The notes beneath the pieces are model-generated. The model was not told the origin of the DNA, did not search any database, and saw only the letters and a list, made by a program, of their open reading frames with translations. Below, one piece after another: positions 28,568-64,000 of a stretch of DNA of 64,000 nucleotides (position 1 is the first letter of the stretch; every line of letters begins with the position of its first letter). The translations under genes were made by a program, and so were the position numbers. Origin of the DNA: Nitrosopumilus sp. (lineage in GTDB: Archaea > Thermoproteota > Nitrososphaeria > Nitrososphaerales > Nitrosopumilaceae); assembly GCA_965223425.1 (NCBI GenBank), contig OZ245003.1, forward strand, positions 64,001-128,000, in the 5' to 3' direction.

Positions 28568-29223
28568 TATTCACAATGGACATATCTGAAATAGAATTTG
28601 GTTCTCTATTGAGTTATTCGGTGCGTGGTACATCGAAAAAAGCTGAAGAATCTAAATCAGCTATGAGAAATCTTAAACAGGATAATGTTTTGAGTTCAGA
28701 AATTTTAACGTCAGAATATGTTGCACAGGCATTGAGAAAAAAGATCAAAGAATATCCATTTGCAGATTTTTTCAATTCTGATACAATTCTTGTACCCATA
28801 CCAAGAAGTTCATTACCAATACTAGGAATGCTTTGGGTATCAGAACGTATTACAACAGCACTAATCAACAACGGGCTAGGCAGATCATCTGAACCATGTT
28901 TAGAACGGGTTAGTGCTGTAGCAAGATCATCTGGCCAAAGAATTGGATTCAGAAGAGCAAGTCCATCAGAACATTATGAATCAATGAGAGTTAGAGAATT
29001 GTTGTTTGAACCTAAAGAAATCGTTGCAGTTGATGATGTTGTTACTAGAGGGTCAACATTTCTAGGAGGAGTAAATAGACTTGCAGAAGCATTTCCCAAT
29101 GCAAAGATCCGTGCATTTGCGGTTATGAGATCAATTTATGATGCAGGTGATTTTTCAGATGTTGTTGATCCTTGTATAGGTAAGATTACTATGTTTAATG
29201 ATATACCACAAAGAAGACCATAG
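28564..29223 (+). CDS. Phosphoribosyltransferase (ComF-like PRTase domain)
   Basis: LVPIPRS and VDDVVTRGST PRPP-binding loop; overlaps the DprA stop. Confidence 0.88.
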   Translation: MIFTMDISEIEFGSLLSYSVRGTSKKAEESKSAMRNLKQDNVLSSEILTSEYVAQALRKKIKEYPFADFFNSDTILVPIPRSSLPILGMLWVSERITTALINNGLGRSSEPCLERVSAVARSSGQRIGFRRASPSEHYESMRVRELLFEPKEIVAVDDVVTRGSTFLGGVNRLAEAFPNAKIRAFAVMRSIYDAGDFSDVVDPCIGKITMFNDIPQRRP

Positions 29224-29581
29224 ACTTTTCTTGAAGACAGATTTACAGATCCAAATTACAATTCATACAATACCAATTGTCCTTTGGGGGTTTTATCTCT
29301 TATTCTTTTGGGATGTTTGCATTCTCAAACAAGCTCCTTTCTCAAAGAATCCAAAATCAGAACATTTTGATCCAAGTTCCGCAAGTGTTTGAACAAAACT
29401 GAAATTGATCATTGTCAGTTCCACGTCTTTGAAGGATCTACCATTTCGTCTCTTAGCTTAGTGTTCCTTTCAACATAAATCTACCAAAAAACTGCTTTTT
29501 TTGTAACCATCAGGCTCAAAAAACTAAAATAGAAAAAAACAGAACTGGTCAACAAATGCAGTCCTGTAATAGACTGACATG

Positions 29582-30936
29582 TCAGTAGTTCCCAGATGTA
29601 GACTTGTGCCCAGATGCAGGTTTGTGCCCAGATGCCGGTGCGTTACCGCATAACTGCAATGCAAAGATCCAGATTAGGCTATGGTGTGCAAGATGTCATG
29701 AGCAATCAAACACACGACGATCTGATCGCACACCAGTACAACATAACGTCAAACCGGTTTAAAATCCTGCGCTCGTCGTTTCAAAAGCTTGGCATGCCAA
29801 TGTCTGAGAGGCACAACGCCGTATACGGATGCAACGACATACTGGACGTGCCAATCAGGGCGTCTGAGAGAAACACGTTTGTAGAATCCCTCGTACGGCG
29901 CAGCAGGCTTCAAGACACGGGTGCACGTACGCCTGGCGCAGACCTGGTCATGTCTGCAGTCCGTGGCGTCGAACCGGCAGACGTGCAGGCCTGGTGTGCA
30001 AGGACGCTGGCACGCACGGTGCGGCACGCCCGCCATACAGGAATGCTGCAGGACATCGACGCCATTGCAATAGACGTTACGGACATACCATACCATGGGG
30101 AGCAGCTGCAGGAGCATACAAGAAAGTCGCGTCCAAGGGCAGGAACATCCACGTTTCTCTCGTATGTCGCAGTGCACGGAGTCGGCAGGGACTCCTCGCA
30201 GGTTGTCCTGGAATCGAAGCTGCTGCCGGCAAAGGAAAAACTGGCCGATTTTATAGCCAAAACACGCACGAAAATCCTCAGAGGGGGGGCGCACACTCAA
30301 AGACTGTGTTCCTGTACGACCGCGCCTTTTACAGCGTTGACTGCATGACAGAGGCAGGAAAGGGCGGGTGCCGCTACATCATGCCTGTCATCATGAACTC
30401 CAAGATCAAGAGGATAGTCAAGATGTACGAGAATGGAAAGGCAAGCCAGGTATCGCAGCAGTCAATGACCAACAAAGACGGCGTAACTGTGACCTACAAC
30501 CTTGTAATTGTCAAAAGAGACAGGAAGGAGAAGGAGGAGGAGGAGCAATACATTGCGTTTGCAACAAACATTCCCATCAGGAGCGCCAGAGCCATGACAG
30601 ACATCATACCGGAGCAGTACCGCAAGAGATGGGGCATCGAGACGGGGTTTCGCGTCATAAAGGAAATCATGGGCAGGACATGCAGCAACTCCCTGTCTGT
30701 GAGGCTGCTGATGTTTTACCTGCCGCTGCTGTTGCTGTACAACCTGTGGAGGATTGCCAGGTTCTGCCTTGATGCAGGAAAGAGGCACGGAAGAGCGTCT
30801 TCTGCGGGAAAAAAACTCACCATGGCGTTGTTTATCGTGTACATTACAAGCAGAAACGAGTTGTTTGTCAATGATCGAGGCAAGTAGAACCGATGCCAGT
30901 TGCGGTTGCGGTAAATCTACATCTGGGAACTACTGA
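29582..30936 (+). mobile_element. ISH3/IS4-type element, transposase frameshifted at G-run ~30283
   Basis: TIR TCAGTAGTTCCCAGATGTAGA at both ends; 4-bp TSD CATG; AIDVTD, YDRAFY, YRKRWGIETGFR motifs. Confidence 0.9.
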
Positions 30937-31618
30937 CATGGAGCCTGCCATAAAATCTGCGCTGTCACTGCCTGACAAAAAGCTTGCAGAGACCAGACAG
31001 ATATCAGACATTCGGGAGCTGGCATGCGCCTTTCCTGGGCTGCACGCAATCATTGACGCATCAGAGCAGCAGATTCAAAGGCCCAAGAACAAGTCCATGA
31101 GAAAAACACACTATTCGGGCAAAAAGAAGACGCATACGGTCAAGACACAGTACGTTGTAAACGCAGACGGCATGATTATGCACAGGACGCCGCACTCGCC
31201 TGGAAGCAGGCATGACTATTCTGTCTTCAAGTCAAAGTGCCCAAAACTTTCAAGAGATCTGAAAATCCTTGTGGATCTTGGATATCAGGGGATACGGAAG
31301 GACTATCCGGAGCTTGACGTGTTGATCCCGTACAAGAAGCCAAGGGGCGGCAAGCTTGATGATGCGCAGAAGGAATTCAACCGGGAGCTGTCCAGAGCAA
31401 GGGTACTGGTGGAGCATGTCATCTCAAGGATCAAGAAATTCGGCATAATGAGGGACAAGTTTAGGAACAGACTGTGCAGGTATGACTGCATCAATGCCAT
31501 AATCTGCGGCCTGATCAACTACAAGCTGAAGACGCGCGATTTTGTTGTGATACCATGACGTAACAAGGAATCAGTTTGGTGAAACGTCAGGTTTTGTTAG
31601 TAATTACAGATCAGGTCT
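30937..31618 (+). pseudogene. IS5-family (DDE_Tnp_4) transposase lacking N-terminal HTH, interrupted by the ISH3 element
   Basis: IIDASEQ, YSGKKKTH, VDLGYQG, RVLVEHVISRIK; right end ...TCAGGTCT; possible left end AGAACTGGTC at 29541. Confidence 0.8.
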
Positions 31619-31657
31619 ACTATTAGTACCAGCAAAATGGAAAAATCGTTTCTTTAT

Positions 31658-31921
31658 TCAATTTTGATCTGATGGATGAATATCATTTGTTGGTAAATTA
31701 ATGTAAACTGATTTAAAGAAAACAAATCTTAATTTTATGGGTTTAAAAATAGTTTTTAAAACATCTTCTAAAAAGCCATTATTTGTTTTAGGTATCCATA
31801 CTTCTTCTTTTGTTAACGTATGTTTACAAAATATAGTAGATCCGCCATCAGGATCACGTACATTAAATCCCAAAATTTTTAATGCTCGTGATGTGTCCTT
31901 CGCATTGTATCTTTGATCCAA
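31658..31921 (-). CDS. HicA-like toxin
   Basis: RALKILGF...GGST...KH...VWIP...VLKTIF pattern; lies downstream of the HicB-like gene. Confidence 0.6.
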   Translation of the reverse strand: MDQRYNAKDTSRALKILGFNVRDPDGGSTIFCKHTLTKEEVWIPKTNNGFLEDVLKTIFKPIKLRFVFFKSVYINLPTNDIHPSDQN

Positions 31922-31927
31922 GTTTTA

Positions 31928-32143
31928 TCACTTCAATTGCATTTCTTTCATTGGTGTGTTAAAAATCTCATCACGTTTTTCTGGATAAATTTCTAAATAT
32001 TCTCGTATTGATTGTATCAAGTTATTTCCTGCTTCTTCCTCTGTTGTTCCAAATGCTGTTACTTTGTCATTCGTACTACATCGTGAAACATAGCCTTCTT
32101 CAACTTTATCTAATGTATAGGTAACAATCAACTTATCCTTCAT
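31928..32143 (-). CDS. HicB-like antitoxin (short, no DNA-binding domain)
   Basis: EEGYVSRC...TAFGTTEEEAGNNLIQSIREYL. Confidence 0.75.
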   Translation of the reverse strand: MKDKLIVTYTLDKVEEGYVSRCSTNDKVTAFGTTEEEAGNNLIQSIREYLEIYPEKRDEIFNTPMKEMQLK

Positions 32144-32246
32144 GTTTAAATTTACTATTAGGGGTAATTATTAATCTTTACTAAGAAATTCAGATCTAAA
32201 AGTGAAATCCTATTGAGTAACAATGATCTCTTTACCACGGATAATA

Positions 32247-32346
32247 GTAACAGTTCGGATTTATGAAGCGTTGTGCCTGAATTGATCGTAAAATCCGTAA
32301 TTCTGACGTATTTTACACACCCGACTCCACAAATCCGAACTGTTAC
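32247..32346. mobile_element. 100-bp IS66-type MITE
   Basis: Perfect 16-bp TIR GTAACAGTTCGGATTT; 8-bp flanks GGATAATA / GAATAATA. Confidence 0.8.
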
Positions 32347-32530
32347 GAATAATAAATTTTAATTTTTTAGGGTTACGTAGTTTTTCTACTATTGGTTTTG
32401 GGACTATACAGATTGCGCCTCTTGACTCACCAAGATTCAAACTTACTGTAAATTCTACCTCATCTTTTTTCTATCTTGTCAATTCCTTCAGTGTTTTTGA
32501 TATCTATATTAACCTTAAGGATAATAGATG

Positions 32531-33983
32531 GTAAGAGGCTAGGTCTCTAGTACAGTCTCAGTATCTCTTCTTGAATGCTGGTGCCCCTTTTCTGCCATGT
32601 CAGCAAGCAGCTCACAAGTATGCCAAATACCTTCATGCCTGCTTCGGTGACAAGACGCTGTCTAATCTTGCGCGATATGACGACCCGGCGAAGCATCCTT
32701 TCTGATTCGTTGTTTGTGGGATCCATTCCGGGATGCTTTAGAAACGTAAACAGGTTTGGTGTGGCCTTTTCCAGCTTGTCTCCGAACTTGCAGTCCGGAC
32801 AGCCCTTGTACGAATCCGCAATTGCCGTGCAGGAGATCACAAACGAGTCATAATGCGTGTGCGCGTCAGGCCGCAGCGCAACCTGCTTTGCATCGTGGTA
32901 TAGCAAACGCAGTTTCTCATACAGCATGGTTTTTGGTTCATCATCACCATCACCATCATCCTGTTCAAATTCGGCATCACACAGTATGTGCGACCGGCAC
33001 CGTTGAATTGTTCTGAAACTGTTGTATGCCGCATAACCGTCGACTGTCACGGGAATATCCCAGTGAGGAAAGTGAAGATCCAGTACGGCAGCGGCCCTGC
33101 TTCTGTCCACATGAATCAGTACCGCATCATCACCGATGCATACCCAGACATATCCCAGTTTGTCGTATATTGTATATGACGTCTCATCAAGTTTCAGGTA
33201 TTTTGATCTGCCAATATTTTCTTTCCATGACTCTACCTCTGACTCCAACGCTCCTCCTAATGCAAACAGCGCGTTTTGTATTGTTTTTTTGCAGATTGAC
33301 GTGTCATACAGGCTTGCTGCCTCCCTGATTGAGTTCAGGCTGCAGCCTTGTTTATACATCGACATGATTATTGTCATGAGGTTCTTGCCAATCGATGTTC
33401 CGTCTATTCCGACCCGGGGCGTTGTGACATGTCCGCACCTGCAGGTGCAGTGCTGTATGACGTTGTTTGTAGATACGGTCCTTGGAATCTCCGGAATGTC
33501 GACTGTCATCTTTGTCGTGGTCTTTGTAACTGTAATGCCTTTGCTGCCGCACTTTGCGCATTTTTTTGGCCTGTGCACCGTTGTGTGACAAGGCCTTCTC
33601 TTGTGGGATGCGCCGACGTGGCCTGCCCTTGCTCCGCCCTTGTTTGGAGGGGAGGAACCGCCTTTTGCACGGTCTGCCTTTTTTCGGCGCGTGGGAATGG
33701 AGTTTGCCGACGGCGGTGAGTGCGGATTCTCGTAGAACGCTACGCGCCTCTTTAGTTCCGCTATTGTCAAATCCTTCTCGGCTTCCCTTGCCTGTAATTT
33801 TTTTACATCGCCTGCCAACTGGCTGACAATCTTTCGCAAGCTGTCGTTTTCAGCAAATGATTTTGCCAGAGCATCCCGTAATATCTTGATCTCCGAGTCA
33901 CTCATTAGACAGAATCAGGGATCATCGAATTTGGATCAGTATGATCTAGAATGTTTGAGTTCGTGACTAACCTAGCCTCTTAC
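32531..33983 (-). mobile_element. IS66-family element with a single ORF
   Basis: TIR GTAAGAGGCTAGGT / ACCTAGCCTCTTAC; no matching TSD. Confidence 0.9.
32547..33905 (-). CDS. IS66 transposase (TnpC-like)
   Basis: Leucine zipper, Zn finger, LDETS, VDGYAAY, QRC.SH, PTNNESERMLR. Confidence 0.92.
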   Translation of the reverse strand: MSDSEIKILRDALAKSFAENDSLRKIVSQLAGDVKKLQAREAEKDLTIAELKRRVAFYENPHSPPSANSIPTRRKKADRAKGGSSPPNKGGARAGHVGASHKRRPCHTTVHRPKKCAKCGSKGITVTKTTTKMTVDIPEIPRTVSTNNVIQHCTCRCGHVTTPRVGIDGTSIGKNLMTIIMSMYKQGCSLNSIREAASLYDTSICKKTIQNALFALGGALESEVESWKENIGRSKYLKLDETSYTIYDKLGYVWVCIGDDAVLIHVDRSRAAAVLDLHFPHWDIPVTVDGYAAYNSFRTIQRCRSHILCDAEFEQDDGDGDDEPKTMLYEKLRLLYHDAKQVALRPDAHTHYDSFVISCTAIADSYKGCPDCKFGDKLEKATPNLFTFLKHPGMDPTNNESERMLRRVVISRKIRQRLVTEAGMKVFGILVSCLLTWQKRGTSIQEEILRLY

Positions 33984-34238
33984 CATGCAGCAACTCCCTG
34001 TCTGTGAGGCTGCTGATGTTTTACCTGCCGCTGCTGCTGTACAACCTGTGGAGGATTGCCAGGTTCTGCCTTGATGCGGGAAAGAGGCATGGAAGAGTGT
34101 CTTCTGCGGGAAAAAAACTCACCATGGCGCTGTTTATCGTGTACATTACAAGCAGAAACGAGTTGTTTGTCAATGATCGAGGCAAGTAGAACCGATGCCA
34201 GTTGCGGTTGCGGTAAATCTACATCTGGGAACTACTGA
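33984..34238 (+). pseudogene. 3' fragment of a second ISH3 copy
   Basis: Near-identical to 30679-30936 including the right TIR. Confidence 0.9.
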
Positions 34239-40244: not shown

Positions 40245-40587
40245 ATTAGTTCAATCATTTTTTAATTTCTTTTTATTATTTTAGATTTTAACGGCATCTG
40301 GTTTGCTTTGTGAAATATTTGGCTTTTTCGGCTAGCTAGACATCATCATTCCTTGACACATTTGTAGATTACACTAGACGTATGGATCAGTTAGACTGAT
40401 GCCAAAAGGCATCCGTGAACAAAAAATACGGCCGCATGATCTATCCCGGTGCACAGAAGACTTTATGCACAATTGAATCGTTAAAATTTTTCCGAAAGAT
40501 TTAGATCCATTTTGATCGCCGCAACAGGTAATGGAATCTTCAGAACAGACTATACGCAGGCTGCAAAGGGAGCTCAAGCAAAAGGAC

Positions 40588-40671
40588 AGAGCAATCAAGC
40601 AGAACAACAGAGCAATCAAGCAGAACAACAGAGCAATCAAGCAGAACAACAGAGCAATCAAGCAAAAGGAC
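40588..40671 (+). repeat. 21-bp tandem repeat encoding heptad RAIKQNN
   Basis: AGAGCAATCAAGCAGAACAAC x3 plus one variant. Confidence 0.9.
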
Positions 40672-41004
40672 GCAGCAATCAGCAGGCGCGAGAAGACAAT
40701 TGGCCTGCTGCGCGAGCAGCTGCTGCGCGAGGACAGCCTGTGGGCCGTTACAGATGCAGGCCGCTCTGATACGGACACGTCGCTGCTACTGCACAGCAGG
40801 GAGGTGATCCACGGCATACTGCACAACAGCGCAAAGCTTGCAGGGATTACCGTATGACCTTGACCAGTTTGACTACACCTGCAATGACTTTGTGGTAGAG
40901 TCAAAGAGGCACAACAAAGACGCGCCGCTCTTTTCAGAGGACGAAACACCGGATCCCGGAAACCGCTGCCTGCTTGACCGCAGGTCCGTCCTGCTGCTTG
41001 CGCT

Positions 41005-41112
41005 GTTCCGCAAGCGCTCAAACGTGACGCAGGATGCACTCTAAAGTTAAAGAGCAAGCCCCTAATCAGCCTACAAGTTCCGCAAGCGCTCAAACGTGAC
41101 GCAGGATGCACT
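41005..41112. repeat. 36-bp direct repeat flanking a 36-bp unique insert (single repeat-spacer-repeat unit)
   Basis: GTTCCGCAAGCGCTCAAACGTGACGCAGGATGCACT at 41005-41040 and 41077-41112; insert 41041-41076. Confidence 0.9.
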
Positions 41113-42613
41113 GGGAGTGCTGTTTGATGTGGATCAGTCCACCGTGTGCAGGTACCTCAAGTTTGCAGATTCCGTGCTGGCAAAGATTCTGCCTACTGCA
41201 GACAGGATGACCCGTCTGGTAAAAAAGGCCGAGACATCAGAGCAGCTAGAGCAGCTAATGCCGGACAGAACCATCATAATTGACGGCACCGAGGTGGTGC
41301 CAAGGCAGCGTCCGCAGGACAAGGATAAAAGAAAAAACACGTACTCTGGCAAAAAGAAGCGCTTTACGATTAACACCACCATAACAACAAACAAGGCAGG
41401 CCTGATACTTGCAGCAGGCAGGTCCTTTGAGGGCGGGACGCACGACCTTGCCATGATAAGAGAGGATCCGACAGACTGGCAGGTGGTCTAAATCCATGTA
41501 CAAAAAAGACACTCCGGAAAAGGACAGGATACGGTGCTTGCAGACAAGGGGTACCAGGGATGCCAATCACTACGAGGGAATAGCACTTGAGATGCCGGAA
41601 AAAAAGAGGCCGCGGACGGAGCTGACGCAGCAGCAAAAGGACTCCAACAAAAGGATCAGCGCCAAGAGGGTAAAGGCGGGGCACGCCATCGGAAGAATAA
41701 AGCAGTGGGCAAGGATGACAGACCCGTACGACGGCACGGTAGAGGAGTTTCGCGAGGAGCTGGCTGTGTGTACCGGCCTTGCAAACTTTGGTTTGCTGTG
41801 GGATGCAAAAAGAAAGCGGCCGTCACTTGGTTATTGACGGTACGATACTGGGTGCATGATGATGATGATGATGATGACGCATCGCAAGAGTGCGCACGGA
41901 TTTCTAATTTCTGCGAATTTACAATGATCTTTTGCATCAAAATTAAATAATTTCCTGGACTGGCTTTGTGTGTCTTGGTAATGTATGCTGCAGAAAAAAT
42001 TTGACGGGTCAATTATGCATAAAGTCTATTGTATATGACGTCTCATCAAGTTTCAGGTATTTTGATCTGCCAATATTTTCTTTCCATGACTCTACCTCTG
42101 ACTCTAACGCTCCTCCTAATGCAAACAGCGCGTTTTGTATTGTTTTTTTGCAGATTGACGTGTCATACAGGCTTGCTGCCTCCCTGATTGAGTTCAGGCT
42201 GCAGCCTTGTTTATACATCGACATGATTATTGTCATGAGGTTCTTGCCAATCGATGTTCCGTCTATTCCGACCCGGGGCGTTGTGACACGTCCGCACCTG
42301 CAGGTGCAGTGCTGTATGACGTTGTTTGTGGATACGGTCCTTGGAATCTCCGGAATGTCGACTGTCATCTTTGTCGTGGTTTTTGTAACGGTAATGCCTT
42401 TGCTGCCGCACTTTGCGCATTTCTTTGGCCTGTGCACCGTTGTGTGACAAGGCCTTCTCTTGTGGGATGCGCCGACGTGGCCTGCCTTTGCTCCGCCCTT
42501 GTTTGGAGGGGAGGAGGAGGAGGAGGAGGAACCGCCTTTTGCACGGTCTGCCTTTTTTCGGCGCGTGGGAATGGAGTTTGCCGACGGCGGTGAGTGCGGA
42601 TTCTCGTAGAACG

Positions 42614-43746
42614 TAGTGAATTGGATTAACAATCGCTCACAAAACAGACAACATTATTCAACCACAAGATCTAGATCCCAGTGTATGGCAGAATCCGCAT
42701 GAAATACAACGATTCCATAGTAATACCGGCAGACAAAAGATTCCTGTCCGGCGTCTCCAGTGCGCGCCTGCGCAGCATGCAAAAAAAGGAGACAGATCCC
42801 AGGGCCGCAACAAGACTGCTGGCATATGCCATGCGCAAGGAGGGCATGTCCATACGCCGGATATGCATGGCCCTCAACAGGTCATATTCCACAGTACGGG
42901 GCTGGCTTGTGCGCGCCGCACAGCTTGGCACCGACGGCAGATACGACATCAAAAATGAAGGCGCGCCAAACAAGCTCGATCCGGAACAGATAGAACAGCT
43001 GCGCGCAGACCTGCTGGCAGGCCCGCGCAGTTGCGGCTTTGAGTCCGGAGTGTGGACGGCACCGCTGCTGGCCGTACACATCAGAAAAAAGTTCGGCGTG
43101 CAGTATGCCACTGTCAGCATATATGACATACTGCACAGGATGGGCTTTTCGTGCAGAAAGCCGCGTCCAAAGCACCCAAGTCAGCCTCAGAATCAGAGAA
43201 AAAAAAGTTTAAAAAAAAGCAGAGGAGATAATCCAGAGTCATCCAGACCATACGGTGATTACAGTTGACGAGGCCTCCTTTATCATTGGGTGGAATACCA
43301 AGAACGGGTGGTACCCCAAGGGCAGGCCCGTCACCACTCCAGTCAGCCTGTCGCGCAAAAGGTTCTACTCGTTTGGGGCGCTGTACGACGGCGGCTTTGA
43401 CTGCAGGTTCTATGCCAAGGCCGACAGCTACGGCTTTGTGGACATGCTCGGACACCTGCATCTCAAGCACGGCAAGATCATCGTCTTTCTTGATAACGCA
43501 TCGTACCACAAGTCAAAGATGGTCAATGATTTTGTCGACTCGTATGACGGCGACATAGTCCCTGTTTACTTGCCCGTGTACACCCCGGAGCTGAATACCA
43601 CGGAGGGGCAGTGGAGGCTGTTAAGAAGGGCCACTGCAAACGTGATGTATGAAAGCACAAAGGTGATGAAGGAATCCATATGGACAATGCTGTATAGACG
43701 TGAGGTCAGGATAACAAGGATGAGCGGTTATTTATCCTAGTCACTA
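42614..43746 (+). mobile_element. IS630 element (CG target) with frameshifted transposase
   Basis: Ends TAGTGA...TCACTA flanked by CG; close copy of 62845-63976 with two single-base deletions. Confidence 0.92.
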
Positions 43747-43915
43747 CGCTACGCGCCTCTTTAGTTCCGCTATTGTCAAATCCTTCTCGGCTTCCCTTGC
43801 CTGTAATTTTTTTACATCGCCTGCCAACTGGCTGACAATCTTTCGCAAGTTGTCGTTTTCAGCAAATGATTTTGCCAGAGCATCCCGTAATATCTTGATC
43901 TCCGAGTCACTCATT

Positions 43916-44014
43916 AGACCTTATGCGTAATCGACTAAAAATTCAAAATCAAATTGGTTTACTAAGGCAAAAATCATCTCGCAATATTAGTTTGATCGAT
44001 TATGCATAAGGTCT
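43916..44014. mobile_element. 99-bp IS5-type MITE, copy 2
   Basis: TSD ATT; empty site visible at 33901-33912. Confidence 0.93.
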
Positions 44015-60264: not shown

Positions 60265-61000
60265 AAAATTTACTAAAGAACCATACTCAGAAATCCTTGG
60301 ATATCCAAAAGCTACTACTCGCCAAATAAAATCACGAATTAACGAATTAGAAAAATTGAAGATCAAGTCAATTTCACTAACAGGTTCTACTACGATTGGA
60401 AAGCTGGTAATTTTAGGAAAAGGATACGTTGGAGTTGTAGTTTTAGCAAAAAAAGGTAGCAAGCAAGTTGCATTAAAAATTAGAAGAACAGATTCGCAAA
60501 GAAAAGAAATGAAAAATGAAGCAACTTTGTTAAAATTGGTAAATTCAGTTAATGTTGGACCAAAGATGTTTCTTGCCAGTAAAAATTTTCTAGTTATGGA
60601 ATACATTGAAGGAGAAAAAATCATGGATTGGATACATGTGTTGAAAGGAACAGGTAGTGCTAAAAAATTAAAATCTACAATTAAAAGCATCTTAGAAGAT
60701 TGTTATAGATTAGACCAAATTGGATTTGATCACGGTGAGTTGAGCAATATTTCAAAGCATGTCATTGTAGGAAAAACAAAATCCACTATAATTGATTTTG
60801 AAAGCTCTAGTACTAAGAGAAGGCCATCAAATGTAACATCAGTTACTCAAGCAATTTTTATTGGATCAGGTATTGCAAAAAAAGTTCAGAAAATTTACAA
60901 AAATCCATCTAAGAAGAAGATCATAGGTGCATTAAAACAGTACAAACAAGAAAAAACACAAGAAAATTTTGATAATCTATTGAGGATCCTAAAAATATAG
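60239..61000 (+). CDS. RIO-like Ser/Thr protein kinase
   Basis: LGKGYVG, VALK, HGELS, IIDFE. Confidence 0.88.
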   Translation: MVHSFISIKKFTKEPYSEILGYPKATTRQIKSRINELEKLKIKSISLTGSTTIGKLVILGKGYVGVVVLAKKGSKQVALKIRRTDSQRKEMKNEATLLKLVNSVNVGPKMFLASKNFLVMEYIEGEKIMDWIHVLKGTGSAKKLKSTIKSILEDCYRLDQIGFDHGELSNISKHVIVGKTKSTIIDFESSSTKRRPSNVTSVTQAIFIGSGIAKKVQKIYKNPSKKKIIGALKQYKQEKTQENFDNLLRILKI

Positions 61001-61191
61001 TGGAACCGGTAGGATTTTGTATTATATGAAAATTGGTTCTGTAACAAATTGGGGACATGAATGTGATTCGTGGTTCCGGTAAATTCCAACAATCTGATCA
61101 CCAAAATCTTCCGGAACCGCAAAGTTCAATGCGCCTGTTGCCGCAACCTTGCATTGAGATCATCATCTTTATATGAAATTTTTATATTAAA

Positions 61192-62118
61192 ATGGGAATG
61201 GTGGACAGTTATATTATTCCGATATTAGTTGGACTGGCAGTGTTGGCTGTCGCATTTGTGGCATTTGGGAATGGCAACGAGTCCCAGAAAGTGATGACTG
61301 TCAGCAGTGATGGCGAGTACTGCAAAGTGTCCGGTTCCAGCTATGACTACTACACTTATGGCTGGTGGAAAAGAACGCACACTGTTGCAGTAATGCCGCC
61401 TCCACCATATGCCGATTCAAGTATTGCCCTTGATTCTGTGGAGATGGCAATCAAGTCATGGGAAGACATCAATCCCGAACTGGACTTTGAAATTGTTGAC
61501 GGTGAGGCAGACGTGAGAATAGAGTGGGAGAGTTCGCTGGGTTCAGACAGGATAGGTGAATATAAACCCCCATCTGGATTTGGATGTGAATGTACCGGGA
61601 ATAATTACGAATGCGTTCTGCCAACATCAACAATCCGTGTGGAGCTGGGCAATACTGACTGCAGGGGCCGATACAGTCTTTATTCAGAAGATACTTTGAC
61701 GGACACGGTAGCGCATGAAATGGGACACTATAACGGCCTTAATCACACCGATAATCCAGATCACCTGATGTTCGGAGATTCTGATCCTGATTATCCGGCC
61801 GTTCCGCACGACATGTTTGAGACGCTCGGTCTGTCGATTCCTGCACAAATAGCCGGTGCGACTTATTTTTTGGACCAGGAAGGGATCCAGCATGAGATGG
61901 ACAGGCTCGACACAAAGCTGGATGATCTTAACTCAGAGTACGACAAACTTTTGGCAAAATATGAAGTGTATCCTGATGTGATATCAGACGATAGAAAATA
62001 TGCCGAGGCGATGCAGATCTATGCCGACATTGAGGATCTCGGCGGCCGAATCAATGTATTGGGGGACAAATACAACCGGTATGTGGATGAGTACAACTGC
62101 TTTTCAGAACACAGGTAG
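61192..62118 (+). CDS. Matrixin-family (metzincin) metalloprotease, membrane anchored
   Basis: HEMGHYNGLNH plus Met-turn LM; N-terminal TM helix; C-terminal coiled coil. Confidence 0.9.
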   Translation: MGMVDSYIIPILVGLAVLAVAFVAFGNGNESQKVMTVSSDGEYCKVSGSSYDYYTYGWWKRTHTVAVMPPPPYADSSIALDSVEMAIKSWEDINPELDFEIVDGEADVRIEWESSLGSDRIGEYKPPSGFGCECTGNNYECVLPTSTIRVELGNTDCRGRYSLYSEDTLTDTVAHEMGHYNGLNHTDNPDHLMFGDSDPDYPAVPHDMFETLGLSIPAQIAGATYFLDQEGIQHEMDRLDTKLDDLNSEYDKLLAKYEVYPDVISDDRKYAEAMQIYADIEDLGGRINVLGDKYNRYVDEYNCFSEHR

Positions 62119-62844
62119 GCCTCGGTCTTTGAACCTGCCCACAGGCTCTTGCATGTGCAACAGATGATGACCCGCATGACAAAAAATCCCGTTCGGCTAA
62201 ACAAGTTAAGGCCTAGCGGAGAATGACGTTTTTTGTAGATGCGTCAAAGTTTCCAAGTCTGTCTGATGCCTCAAACTTTACAATTACGGCATCGCCGCCT
62301 GACGGCGGCTCATCGCCAAGACAGCCGTATCCGAGAAATCCGGTGCCGTAGTCAACATACTAAATAATCGCTCAGCTTGACGGGAAATATCACGTTCTTC
62401 CTGATCATCTTGCGGATTGACTTTACCATCTCGCGCGTGTTGTCGTATACCCTGTTGCCGATCGCGTCCCTCATCACGTTCCACTGCGGCTCCTCCGAGT
62501 TCAGTTCCGGCGTGTGCGGCAGATAGTACCTCAGCTTCACCTCCCCGTTGAACTCCATGAGCCCGTCCCGCACGGCAGCCGACCTGTGCCACGACGCGTT
62601 GTCCACGAACACAAGCACCGGCCCGAACCTGCGGTGCAGGTGCCTCAGGAATGCGAGGAACGCTTCGCTGTTCTGCGCGTCACAGAATCTGAAGCAGAGC
62701 TCGCCGTCGCCCAGCGCGCCGAACACATGCTTCTTCTTTCTGGAGAGCGTGACTGGCGCCGTCCTCTTTGTGCCGCGGAGCTGCCACCCGTATCGGGGCC
62801 TCCTGTCCCCTATCGTCAGGGTGCATTCGTCGGCAGTCAGGACG

Positions 62845-63976
62845 TAGTGAATTGGATTAACAATCGCTCACAAAACAGACAACATTATTCAACCACAAGA
62901 TCTAGATCCCAGTGTATGGCAGAATCCGCATGAAATACAACAATTCTGCAATACCGGCAGACAGAAGGTTCCTGTCCGGCGTCTCCAGTGCGCGCCTGCG
63001 CAGCATGCAAAAAAAGGAGACAGATCCCAGGGCCGCAGCAAGGCTGCTGGCATATGCCATGCGCAAGGAGGGCATGTCCATACGCCAGATATGCAGGGCC
63101 CTCAACAGGTCATACTCTACAGTACGGGGCTGGCTTGTGCGCGCCGCACAGCTTGGCACCTGCGGCAGGTACGACATCAAAAACAAAGGCGCGCCAAACA
63201 AGCTCGATCCGGAACAGACAAAGCAGCTGCGCGCAGACCTGCTGGCAGGCCCGCGCAGTTGCGGCTTTGAGTCCGGAGTGTGGACGGCACCGCTGCTGGC
63301 CGCACACATCAGAAAAAAGTTCGGCGTGCAGTATGCCACTGTCAGCATATATGACATACTGCACAGGATGGGCTTTTCGTGCAGAAAGCCGCGTCCAAAG
63401 CACCCAAAATCAGCCTCAGAATCAGAGAAAAAAGAGTTTAAAAAAAAAGCAGGGGAGATAATCCAGAGTCATCCAGACCATACGGTGATTACAGTTGATG
63501 AGGCCTCCTTTATCATTGGGTGGAATACCAAGAACGGGTGGTACCTCAAGGGCAAGCCCGTCACCACTCCAGTCAGCCTGTCGCGCAAAAGGTTCTACTC
63601 GTTTGGGGCGCTGTACGACGGCGGCTTTGACTGCAGGTTCTATGCCAAGGCCAACAGCTACAGCTTTGTGGACATGCTCGGACACCTGCATCTCAAGCAC
63701 GGCAAGATCATCGTCTTTCTTGATAACGCATCATACCACAAGTCAAAGATGGTCAATGATTTTGTCGACTCGTATGACGGCGACATAGTCCTTGTTTACT
63801 TGCCCGTGTACACCCCGGAGCTGAATACCACGGAGGGGCAGTGGAGGCTGTTAAGAAGGGCCACTGCAAACGTGATGTATGAAAGCACAAAGGTGATGAA
63901 GGAATCCATATGGACAATGCTGGATAGACGTGAGGTCAAGATAACAAGAATGAGCGGTTATTTATCCTAGTCACTA
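62845..63976 (+). mobile_element. IS630 element (CG target), intact
   Basis: Ends TAGTGA...TCACTA flanked by CG. Confidence 0.93.
62912..63970 (+). CDS. IS630 transposase, single ORF
   Basis: TVDEASF, FLDNASYH, YTPELNTTE. Confidence 0.93.
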   Translation: MYGRIRMKYNNSAIPADRRFLSGVSSARLRSMQKKETDPRAAARLLAYAMRKEGMSIRQICRALNRSYSTVRGWLVRAAQLGTCGRYDIKNKGAPNKLDPEQTKQLRADLLAGPRSCGFESGVWTAPLLAAHIRKKFGVQYATVSIYDILHRMGFSCRKPRPKHPKSASESEKKEFKKKAGEIIQSHPDHTVITVDEASFIIGWNTKNGWYLKGKPVTTPVSLSRKRFYSFGALYDGGFDCRFYAKANSYSFVDMLGHLHLKHGKIIVFLDNASYHKSKMVNDFVDSYDGDIVLVYLPVYTPELNTTEGQWRLLRRATANVMYESTKVMKESIWTMLDRREVKITRMSGYLS

Positions 63977-64000
63977 CGGTATAGCCCAGCCTGCGGTACC

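What the first reader, a model, noticed from the sequence alone, without database searches (positions are those of the whole stretch)
41005..41112. Repeat-spacer-repeat scar in a transposase: possible off-target CRISPR spacer integration
Seen: 36 bp of IS5 coding sequence beginning GTTCC is exactly duplicated around a 36-bp unrelated, AT-richer insert (CTAAAGTTAAAGAGCAAGCCCCTAATCAGCCTACAA). The insert adds an in-frame TAA. Removing 72 bp restores LALFRKRSNVTQDALGVLFDV. Established: Cas1-Cas2 integration duplicates a repeat-length target around a spacer-length insert, many repeats begin GTT, off-target integration has been shown experimentally, and IS TSDs are far shorter. Inference: a natural ectopic acquisition (a one-spacer 'neo-array') that disrupted a transposase. 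No cas genes are in this window.
Basis: partly seen in the sequence, partly recalled or inferred. Interest (0 to 1): 0.75.

Follow-up and report, generated by a model that had tools for sequence, protein, structure and literature searches.

The report
Stray CRISPR spacer insertion in transposase
A 36-base stretch of a jumping-gene copy is duplicated around a 36-base foreign insert, exactly the shape that the CRISPR memory-writing enzyme leaves, and the same archaeal chromosome carries about twenty more such stray insertions, half of them copied from the cell's own genes.

Summary
Window 41005-41040 and 41077-41112 are identical 36-mers around a 36-nt insert that occurs nowhere else in the genome. 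Twenty other copies of this IS5-family element have one 36-mer and no insert.

The genome has a complete type I-B cas locus. It has two CRISPR arrays with 36-nt repeats and 34-38-nt spacers.

The unit is one of about 22. A genome-wide scan for isolated two-copy repeats gave a sharp peak at period 71-75 (29 of 47 pairs). Eleven inserts copy spacer-length pieces of unrelated chromosomal genes. Four of those 11 sources lie within 30 kb of the only orc1/cdc6 gene. Eleven of 22 duplicated targets begin GT, like both ends of the array-1 repeat (P 3e-6). Empty sites exist for 6 units.

Best reading: ectopic Cas1-Cas2 spacer integration.

Caveats:
- Public-run contigs did not cover the insert, so this unit is not confirmed by reads.
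- The insert's source and the PAM are unknown.
- The periods fit array 2 better than array 1.

The parts
41005..41040 (+). First copy of the duplicated 36-bp target (IS5-family transposase coding sequence, begins GT).
   Evidence: It is identical to 41077-41112, and the other IS copies hold it once.
41041..41076. 36-nt spacer-length insert, 42% G+C by my count of the sequence, unique in the genome. It brings an in-frame TAA at 41042-41044.
   Evidence: No match in phages, plasmids, IMG/VR, JGI metagenome contigs, GTDB genome contigs or 100 same-genus genomes.
41077..41112 (+). Second copy of the duplicated 36-bp target.
   Evidence: 100% identical, spacing 72.
40453..42032 (+). The IS5-family element that was hit, with 40-nt terminal inverted repeats at 40453-40492 and 41993-42032. 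This copy has further frame breaks.
   Evidence: I1; more than 20 related copies at 92-96% identity; ORF structure of the copies: intact 430- and 431-aa ORFs in two of them; NF033581.
40838..41044 (+). Transposase reading frame cut off by the TAA of the insert.
41096..41837 (+). Downstream transposase fragments (41096-41491 and 41496-41837), which match IS5-family transposase.

Best explanation
The scar is the product of an off-target (ectopic) CRISPR adaptation event. A Cas1-Cas2 integrase of this archaeon's type I-B system captured a spacer-length DNA fragment of about 36 nt. It joined the fragment's two 3' ends to opposite strands of the chromosome, 36 bp apart, at a site in an IS5-family transposase gene whose 5' end (GT...) resembles a repeat end. 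Repair of the two single-stranded gaps duplicated the 36-bp target on either side of the insert, just as a repeat is duplicated in a true array. The event broke a transposase copy that has other frame breaks as well.

It is one of about 22 such fixed events in this chromosome. About half of the inserts were copied from the cell's own genes. Such self-derived spacers can persist at ectopic sites because no real repeat flanks them, so they should not be made into crRNA.

Shown: the anatomy, the empty sites, the matching array geometry, the presence of cas genes, the self-derived inserts and the GT bias.
Inferred: which enzyme did it, the order of the two strand attacks, and the absence of crRNA.
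For: 1. Anatomy: 36 + 36 + 36 nt, with an exact duplication and a unique insert.

2. Insertion proven by empty sites: 20 other IS copies have a single 36-mer and none has the insert.

3. Matching machinery and geometry: there is a full-length cas1, plus cas2 and cas4, next to a type I-B effector set. Array 1 has 74 identical 36-nt repeats and 73 spacers of 34-38 nt. Array 2 has 7 repeats of 36 nt and 6 spacers of 35-38 nt.

4. Not a one-off: among isolated two-copy repeats, 21 of 45 (exact scan) and 29 of 47 (mismatch-tolerant scan) have period 71-75. No other period holds more than 3 pairs. After curation there are 22 distinct units, with duplications of about 34-38 bp and inserts of about 34-39 nt.

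5. The inserts behave like spacers: 11 of the 22 have a near-identical, full-length copy elsewhere in the chromosome. These copies lie in unrelated genes; blastp for two target/source pairs found no paralogy. Sources include PolD DP2, TFB, a radical-SAM protein and a ferredoxin.

6. Target bias: 11 of 22 duplicated targets begin GT on one strand, against 10% expected (binomial P 3e-6). Positions 4-8 are A-rich, like both ends of the array-1 repeat. The passages I read of PMC6698737 report the same kind of rule for P. furiosus Cas1-Cas2 in vitro: off-target sites one repeat length apart, with G1/T2 preferred.

7. Further empty sites: for unit C1:168273, both flanks align in 10 of the 12 same-genus genomes that matched and share one copy of the target. 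The overlap is exactly 36 bp in G003, G004, G007, G008 and G011. In-genome empty copies exist for units 275655 (3), 280165 (1), 1565093 (9) and 2466835 (35).

8. Signs of real history rather than artefact: 6 units have 1-3 mismatches between their two repeat copies, and several inserts differ by 1-2 nt from their sources. The 4 units inside long open frames (437, 417, 301 and 1117 aa) are all in frame (period 72 or 75) and stop-free.

9. Only two Cas1 hits exist in the genome, both of CRISPR type, so there is no casposase-like extra Cas1.
Against: - No source (protospacer) was found for this unit's insert, so neither a PAM nor an orientation can be checked.
- No consistent PAM is visible by eye next to the 11 self-derived sources. 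The system's PAM could not be derived, because array-1 spacers hit nothing in phages, plasmids or 150 genus genomes.
- The ectopic periods (mean 72.7) are longer than those of array 1 (mean 71.3; Mann-Whitney P 1e-5). They equal those of the orphan array 2 (72.7, n = 6), whose repeat does not begin GT. Which adaptation module acted is therefore unclear.
- Nine of 22 targets have no GT end.
- The unit at C1:252320 and 532096 lies in a repeated element with both copies filled and no empty copy, so it may be something else.
Confidence: 0.85

Rival explanations
1. Same mechanism, different enzyme. The integrations were made by a second adaptation module: either the now truncated cas1 fragment plus cas2 at C1:1.38 Mb, or a module that once came with the orphan array 2 on an integrated conjugative-type element. 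On this view the intact module beside array 1 was not responsible. This rival is nested inside the best explanation.
For: The ectopic periods match array 2 (mean 72.7 against 72.7) and differ from array 1 (71.3, P 1e-5). A second cas1 (C-terminal fragment only) and a second cas2 exist. Array 2 lies beside VirB4- and VirD4-like ATPase genes.
Against: The GT target bias fits the array-1 repeat, which begins GT on both strands. It does not fit the array-2 repeat, which begins AT on one strand and GC on the other. Array 2 has only 6 spacers, so its length distribution is weakly known. Seventeen of 23 listed units have identical repeat copies, so they are recent, whereas the second cas1 is a fragment.
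Confidence: 0.2
2. The unit is an assembly or sequencing artefact and is absent from the real chromosome.
For: I have no positive evidence for an artefact. The one reads look neither showed nor excluded the insert; it is described under Tried and rejected.
Against: No known artefact duplicates exactly one CRISPR-repeat length around one spacer length at about 22 places. Nor would an artefact produce a GT target bias, inserts copied from unrelated genes, diverged older units, or in-frame survival inside long ORFs.
Confidence: 0.04
3. A mechanism that does not involve Cas, such as template switching or repair-associated templated insertion, or an unknown integrase, made the duplication and insert.
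For: Templated insertions copied from elsewhere in a genome are known from repair pathways in other organisms (recalled, not tested here).
Against: Such processes give no fixed geometry. Here 29 of 47 isolated pairs fall in a 5-nt band of periods that equals the genome's CRISPR period. Duplications are 36 +/- 2 bp, inserts are spacer-sized, and targets begin GT like the repeat. No Cas1 beyond the two CRISPR-type ones was found.
Confidence: 0.05
4. The structure belongs to the IS itself: a long target-site duplication, a small nested mobile element, or an internal repeat of the transposase gene.
For: The element does hold internal 21-nt tandem repeats further upstream (D1).
Against: Twenty other copies lack the insert and have one 36-mer. 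The insert is unique in the genome, so it is not a mobile-element end. The same kind of unit occurs in unrelated genes.
Confidence: 0.02

Closest known systems
Off-target ('non-canonical') Cas1-Cas2 spacer integration, also called neo-CRISPR generation (Nivala, Shipman and Church 2018, E. coli type I-E)
   Same: A spacer-length insert sits between two copies of a repeat-length stretch of non-CRISPR DNA, made by the adaptation integrase away from an array. I saw this work only as cited in passages of 10.1101/148544 section 16, PMC7054753 section 5 and PMC6698737. The paper itself is not held.
   Different: Those events were detected in cultures that over-produced Cas1-Cas2. According to 10.1101/148544 there was only 'circumstantial evidence' for two other species. 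Here the events are natural, fixed in an assembled archaeal chromosome and made by a type I-B-type system. There are about 22 per genome, half with self-derived inserts. None has grown beyond one spacer.
In vitro off-target integration by Pyrococcus furiosus Cas1-Cas2 (PMC6698737; abstract and passages read)
   Same: Full-site integration occurs at non-CRISPR sites where the two attack points lie one repeat length apart. Guanine is preferred at the attacked position, and G1/T2 are conserved. Here the spacing is 36 bp (the repeat length), and GT is found at one end in 11 of 22 targets.
   Different: That work used a plasmid in a test tube and a 30-bp repeat. Here the record is chromosomal and evolutionary, with a 36-bp repeat. 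The internal repeat-like positions were not tested here beyond an A-rich stretch at positions 4-8.
Canonical CRISPR array expansion at the leader-proximal repeat
   Same: The same chemistry is implied: staggered attack, repeat duplication, and one spacer added. The repeat and spacer sizes are the same.
   Different: There is no leader and no CRISPR repeat sequence. The duplicated 'repeat' is transposase coding sequence, so Cas6 processing is not expected (inference).
Ectopic spacer acquisition inside arrays (Streptococcus thermophilus CRISPR1/CRISPR3; PMC7999890 and PMC5338259, search listing and abstract starts only)
   Same: Integration away from the leader-proximal repeat.
   Different: Those events still use a true repeat inside an array. 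Here the target is non-CRISPR DNA.
Casposon integration (Cas1-family casposase)
   Same: A Cas1-family integrase makes a target-site duplication.
   Different: Casposons carry kilobase-sized cargo with terminal inverted repeats and make short duplications (recalled). Here the cargo is 34-39 nt and different at every site, and no extra Cas1 is present.

Membership tests
Off-target Cas1-Cas2 integration product (single repeat-spacer-repeat unit) | The duplicated target has the length of the genome's CRISPR repeat. | tested here: met
   The duplication is 36 bp. Both arrays have 36-nt repeats.
Off-target Cas1-Cas2 integration product (single repeat-spacer-repeat unit) | The insert has the length of the genome's spacers and is unrelated to the target. 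| tested here: met
   The insert is 36 nt. Array spacers are 34-38 nt. The insert is unique in the genome.
Off-target Cas1-Cas2 integration product (single repeat-spacer-repeat unit) | An empty site exists: the same DNA with one target copy and no insert. | tested here: met
   Twenty other IS copies show this. For a sister unit, 10 same-genus genomes do.
Off-target Cas1-Cas2 integration product (single repeat-spacer-repeat unit) | cas1 and cas2 are present in the genome. | tested here: met
   Cas1 216 bits and Cas2 56 bits, with cas4 and the type I-B effector genes alongside.
Off-target Cas1-Cas2 integration product (single repeat-spacer-repeat unit) | The target resembles the repeat at the attacked ends. 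| tested here: met
   The target begins GT. Across the units this holds for 11 of 22, against 10% expected (P 3e-6).
Off-target Cas1-Cas2 integration product (single repeat-spacer-repeat unit) | The insert derives from a protospacer that carries the system's PAM. | tested here: inconclusive
   No source was found for this insert. Sister units have sources, but no consistent flank motif is visible by eye, and the PAM of the system is unknown.
Off-target Cas1-Cas2 integration product (single repeat-spacer-repeat unit) | The structure is present in sequencing reads of the organism. | tested here: inconclusive
   Only contigs of four runs could be laid. None covered 41040-41076, and the tool states that a hole proves nothing.
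Off-target Cas1-Cas2 integration product (single repeat-spacer-repeat unit) | Integration is catalysed by this organism's Cas1-Cas2. | not testable with these tools
   This needs biochemistry or genetics.
Functional CRISPR array (or neo-array) | Repeats share the sequence that Cas6 recognises; a leader is present; there are two or more spacers. | tested here: not met
   The repeats are IS coding sequence, unrelated to either array repeat. There is one spacer only. No unit in the genome has more than one.
IS target-site duplication, MITE or nested mobile element | The insert recurs in the genome, has terminal repeats and makes a short duplication. | tested here: not met
   The insert is unique, and every unit has a different insert.
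IS5-family insertion sequence (the element that was hit) | A DDE transposase of the IS5 family, terminal inverted repeats, and multiple copies. | tested here: met
   NF033581 at E 7e-8 and 5e-8, below the curated cut-off. There are 40-nt inverted repeats and more than 20 copies.

The most novel reading that the evidence does not exclude
This archaeon's type I-B adaptation machinery has repeatedly written spacers into ordinary chromosomal DNA, leaving at least 22 fixed events. Ectopic units escape autoimmunity, so they preserve a natural, largely unselected record of what Cas1-Cas2 captures. About half of that record is self DNA, with a hotspot around the single replication-origin gene orc1/cdc6. 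The same process acts as a mutagen: it breaks genes, or adds 24-25 residues in frame to proteins that stay open. It also supplies the raw material from which new arrays could arise.
Probability: 0.6. Interest if true: 0.88.

Novelty: new member of a known kind. Interest (0 to 1): 0.8.

Why it matters
Off-target spacer integration has been shown with over-produced Cas1-Cas2 in E. coli and in vitro. Natural cases are, in the passages I could read, only 'circumstantial' (10.1101/148544). A search for 'neo-CRISPR' found that term in a single paper of the library.

A chromosome with about 22 clean, datable events turns several open questions into simple sequence analysis:
- How faithful is integration in nature?
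- What does the integrase recognise when there is no leader? Here, a GT end plus a 36-bp ruler.
- What does naive adaptation capture when autoimmunity does not remove self spacers? Here, core genes with an origin-proximal hotspot.
- Can stray units seed new arrays?

The result also identifies CRISPR adaptation as a source of gene disruption and of in-frame protein insertions. Finally, it gives a simple detector that could be run on all genomes: isolated two-copy repeats whose period equals the local CRISPR period.

Tried and rejected
**Reads.** Six DNA runs hold 0.43-0.70 of the sampled words of window 40850-41300.
- I laid contigs of X1, X3, X4 and X6 on window 40300-41400. None covers 41040-41076, although both flanking 36-mers are covered.
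- No 'skips 72' joint was listed.
- X1 (depth about 364) and X3 (depth 4) each hold a contig identical to 40300-40512, which spans the unique flank and the IS end. So the same IS insertion site is present there.
I therefore count the insert as neither confirmed nor refuted. If the hole is real, the unit is polymorphic among close strains.
- One X1 contig (depth 19.8) joins 41175 back to 41144 through 39 other letters. Most of those letters read as the reverse complement of the array-2 repeat. That makes a period of 71 and a duplicated stretch that begins GT, which hints at a different, sub-clonal ectopic event. It is one contig, and I did not follow it up.

**Source of the 36-nt insert.** None was found in any collection:
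- phages: best hit 84% over 32 nt, E 0.4
- plasmids
- IMG/VR, exact match
- 100 same-genus genomes, up to 3 mismatches
- JGI metagenome contigs and GTDB genome contigs, exact match

**PAM.** Array-1 spacers hit nothing in phages or plasmids. They found no protospacer in 150 genus genomes; 12 of those carry similar arrays. Flanks of the self-derived sources show no consistent motif by eye.

**Empty sites in relatives.** For units 849893, 1271799 and 722645, the target DNA was not found in the 5 relatives searched, so it looks like accessory DNA.

**Paralogy.** I tested whether target and source genes are paralogs, which would point to gene conversion. They are not: only the spacer-length piece is shared.

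**Rows dropped before the count of 22.**
- Tandem or protein-repeat pairs at C1:602280, 1104350 and 1736939.
- Weaker pairs at 1702987, 1706820, 1716318 and 1722817 (repeats of 20-33 nt, inserts of 40-52 nt, partly similar flanks). All lie in a 1.70-1.74 Mb region that may encode periodic proteins.
- 252320, counted together with 532096 as one ambiguous unit.

**Generalisation.** I scanned a 398-kb sample (18%) of relative G073, which carries the same repeat family. It gave 2 isolated pairs. One, with period 75, looks like a protein repeat. The other has period 72, 33-nt repeats with 1 mismatch and a 39-nt insert. For that one, no source or empty site was found in 5 genomes. A lone hit at G073:1362547 is a solitary repeat and not a unit.

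**Other dead ends.**
- The GC-skew profile did not give a clear origin.
- Rfam found nothing at C1:146-151 kb.
- Supplementary files of papers were not consulted. The Nivala 2018 paper is not held, so what it says about natural cases is known to me only at second hand.

Full report
**The observation**

Window 41005-41040 and 41077-41112 are identical 36-mers, 72 nt apart start to start. The 36 nt between them are unrelated to the 36-mer.

The window is C1:64001-128000 of a 2.64-Mb genome with two contigs. In that genome the insert occurs only here; the next best match is 13 nt.

The structure lies in a 1580-bp element bounded by 40-nt inverted repeats at 40453-40492 and 41993-42032. The element's ORF fragments match IS5-family transposase (NF033581, E 7e-8 and 5e-8, below the curated cut-off). 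The insert places a TAA in the transposase frame.

Twenty other copies hold the 36-mer once and have no insert, and none has the insert. So this is a 72-bp insertion made of a 36-bp target duplication plus 36 nt of other DNA. This IS copy has further frame breaks, and two other copies keep an intact ORF of 430 or 431 aa.

**The machinery**

The genome encodes one full-length Cas1 (216 bits) and Cas2, and a second Cas2 beside a C-terminal Cas1 fragment.

The intact pair sits with cas4 on one strand. On the other strand lie a 557-aa gene without a family match, then cas7 (Csh2), cas5b, cas3 (HD plus helicase) and cas6. This is a type I-B locus.

About 80 bp beyond cas4 begins array 1. It has 74 identical 36-nt repeats and 73 spacers of 34-38 nt: 22, 21, 17, 11 and 2 spacers of each length in turn. 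As transcribed, the repeat ends ATTGAAAC, and it begins GT on both strands.

Array 2 is 320 kb away from the cas locus. It has 7 repeats of 36 nt and spacers of 35-38 nt. It lies beside VirB4- and VirD4-like ATPase genes.

The geometry is exactly 36 nt with spacers around 36 nt.

**The unit is one of many**

I scanned the whole genome for isolated two-copy direct repeats separated by unrelated sequence.
- With exact seeds, 21 of 45 pairs had a start-to-start distance of 71-75.
- With up to 2 mismatches per 30 nt and periods 40-130, 29 of 47 did. No other period held more than 3 pairs.

After removing tandem and protein-repeat cases, and counting one locus that appears twice as one, 22 distinct units remain. 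The dropped rows are listed under Tried and rejected.

In these units the duplications are 32-39 nt as observed. They come to about 36 +/- 1 nt where the insert's source fixes the border. Inserts are about 34-39 nt. All units are on C1 and none is on the 123-kb contig C2. No unit has more than one insert.

**The inserts behave like spacers taken from the cell itself**

Eleven of the 22 inserts have a second, near-identical copy of their full length elsewhere in the chromosome. One copy is 100% identical over 36 nt, and the others are 94-100% identical over 34-38 nt.

Similarity stops at the ends of the insert. For the two target/source pairs tested, the genes share nothing else.

The source genes are ordinary core genes: the DP2 subunit of DNA polymerase D, TFB, a radical-SAM protein, a ferredoxin, DUF371, a substrate-binding protein and an ArgZ-like enzyme.

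Four of the 11 sources lie within 30 kb of the only Orc1/Cdc6 gene, at C1:149165-149425. One lies just upstream of it. The binomial P for that window is 9e-5. The P for any such cluster anywhere is 0.0025. The window was chosen after seeing the data, so the second figure is the fair one.

The insert of the unit in hand has no source in the genome or in any collection searched. It may be foreign.

**The targets**

Eleven of 22 duplicated targets begin GT on one strand, against 10% expected (P 3e-6). Thirteen do if a 1-nt border shift is allowed where the duplication is longer than 36 nt. The unit in hand is one of the eleven.

In the GT-oriented set, positions 4-8 are A-rich, as at both ends of the array-1 repeat. 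This matches what the passages of PMC6698737 report for P. furiosus Cas1-Cas2 in vitro: paired attacks one repeat length apart at non-CRISPR sites, guanine preferred, and G1/T2 conserved.

Targets include three other transposase families, an SNF2-helicase/PLD protein and a matrixin-like peptidase. The four units that lie in long open frames (437, 417, 301 and 1117 aa) have periods of 72 or 75 and no stop, so the proteins gain 24-25 residues. That is the filter expected for real mutations under selection.

**Independent proof of insertion**

For unit C1:168273, both flanks align in 10 of the 12 same-genus genomes that matched, and they overlap on a single copy of the target. The overlap is exactly 36 bp in five genomes. 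In the other five it is about 36 bp once the ends of the aligned pieces are allowed for. The insert's source gene is conserved in these genomes as well.

Empty copies inside the genome exist for units 275655, 280165, 1565093 and 2466835, and for the unit in hand.

Six units have 1-3 mismatches between their two repeat copies, so the events span some evolutionary time.

**Mechanism**

The best-supported account is full-site integration by Cas1-Cas2 at a repeat-like site without a leader. One end is chosen by sequence (GT...), the other by a ruler of about 36 bp. Gap repair then duplicates the target.

Shown: anatomy, empty sites, geometry, cas genes, self-derived inserts and target bias.

Inferred: the enzyme, the order of the strand attacks, and the idea that such units are not processed into crRNA, which would explain why self-derived inserts are tolerated there.

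One canonical spacer, the third from the leader in array 1, also matches the chromosome perfectly at C1:198216-198249. I did not examine it further.

**What does not fit, or is open**

- The ectopic periods (mean 72.7) are longer than those of array 1 (71.3, P 1e-5) and equal those of array 2 (72.7, n = 6). Yet the GT bias fits array 1 and not array 2. Possible reasons are looser trimming or a looser ruler off target, a different module, or selection for multiples of three: 10 of 22 ectopic periods against 17 of 73 array-1 periods.
- No PAM could be defined.
- Reads: contigs of four public runs did not cover the insert, although two runs hold the exact flank-IS junction.
- One X1 contig suggests another ectopic event in a related IS copy, with period 71, a target beginning GT, and an insert mostly made of array-2 repeat. 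This is a hint only.

**Comparison with what is known, and novelty**

Off-target integration that spawns 'neo-CRISPR' units was shown in E. coli that over-produced Cas1-Cas2 (Nivala et al. 2018). I know that work only through passages of 10.1101/148544, PMC7054753 and PMC6698737, because the paper is not held. According to 10.1101/148544, it is 'unclear' whether this is common in nature, with circumstantial evidence in two other species. A full-text search for 'neo-CRISPR' found that one preprint only. The other searches gave no report of many natural ectopic units in one genome.

The unit is therefore a new, natural member of a known kind of event. It is not a CRISPR array: it has no CRISPR repeat, no leader, and only one spacer. 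The extent of the phenomenon in this genome, the self-derived inserts and the origin-proximal hotspot are, as far as these searches reach, new observations.

A 398-kb sample of one relative with the same repeat family held one unverified candidate.

**Verdict**

Interest is 0.8.

Noticed in passing
G000 C1: 21872, 168273, 275655, 280165, 311394, 532096 (= 252320), 722645, 849893, 926657, 1123482, 1174183, 1271799, 1298803, 1303385, 1565093, 1714194, 1730908, 1887992, 1924360, 2401614, 2466835 (all outside the window): Twenty-one further single repeat-insert-repeat units with period 71-75. Eleven of them have inserts copied from elsewhere in the chromosome.
   Followed up: yes
G000 C1:141958-174135, around orc1/cdc6 at C1:149165-149425: Four of the 11 chromosomal sources of ectopic inserts cluster within 30 kb of the only Orc1/Cdc6 gene, and one lies just upstream of it. 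This may be an origin-proximal hotspot of spacer capture.
   Followed up: partly
G000 C1:1362329-1362362 (array 1, third spacer from the leader) and C1:198216-198249: A canonical array spacer matches the organism's own chromosome perfectly. The match lies in a 168-aa ORF with no Pfam family.
   Followed up: partly
window 40574-40699: There are 21-nt tandem repeats near the 5' end of the IS, coding a heptad-like AIKQNNR/AIKQKD repeat. The copy number differs between IS copies, whose lengths range from 1498 to 1618 bp.
   Followed up: no
G000 C1:1682473-1682941 and C1:1629277-1629310: An orphan 7-repeat CRISPR array lies 320 kb from the cas genes, beside VirB4/VirD4-like ATPase genes and a TBP paralogue (possibly an integrated conjugative element). 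A solitary degenerate copy of its repeat lies 53 kb away.
   Followed up: partly
G000 C1:1371059-1371160 and C1:1379717-1380419: Beyond cas6 there is a degenerate array-1-type repeat followed by a copy of the array-1 trailer, which looks like the remnant of a second array. A second adaptation module is reduced to a C-terminal cas1 fragment plus cas2.
   Followed up: partly
run X1, contig laid at window 41144-41175: A low-depth contig (19.8, against about 364 for single-copy DNA) repeats 41144-41175 around 39 other letters. Most of those letters are the reverse complement of the array-2 repeat. The period is 71 and the target begins GT, so this may be a sub-clonal ectopic event with an insert captured from a CRISPR array (table 5c).
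   Followed up: no
G000 C1:1702987-1736939: Several weaker direct-repeat pairs with period 69-75 (repeats of 20-33 nt, partly similar flanks) lie in a 34-kb region. They may be old degraded units or periodic protein repeats, and I did not count them.
   Followed up: no
G073 C1:360797-360901 (L079 2597-2701) and G073 C1:1362547-1362586: A relative with the same repeat family holds one candidate unit (period 72, 33-nt repeats with 1 mismatch, 39-nt insert) in a 398-kb sample. It also holds a solitary CRISPR repeat far from its arrays.
   Followed up: partly
window 29000-34000, 42000-44000, 61000-64000: Further islands of 45-55% G+C sit in a background of about 33%. They are probably other insertion sequences. 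ORFs at 42681-43740 look like another transposase but were not annotated.
   Followed up: no
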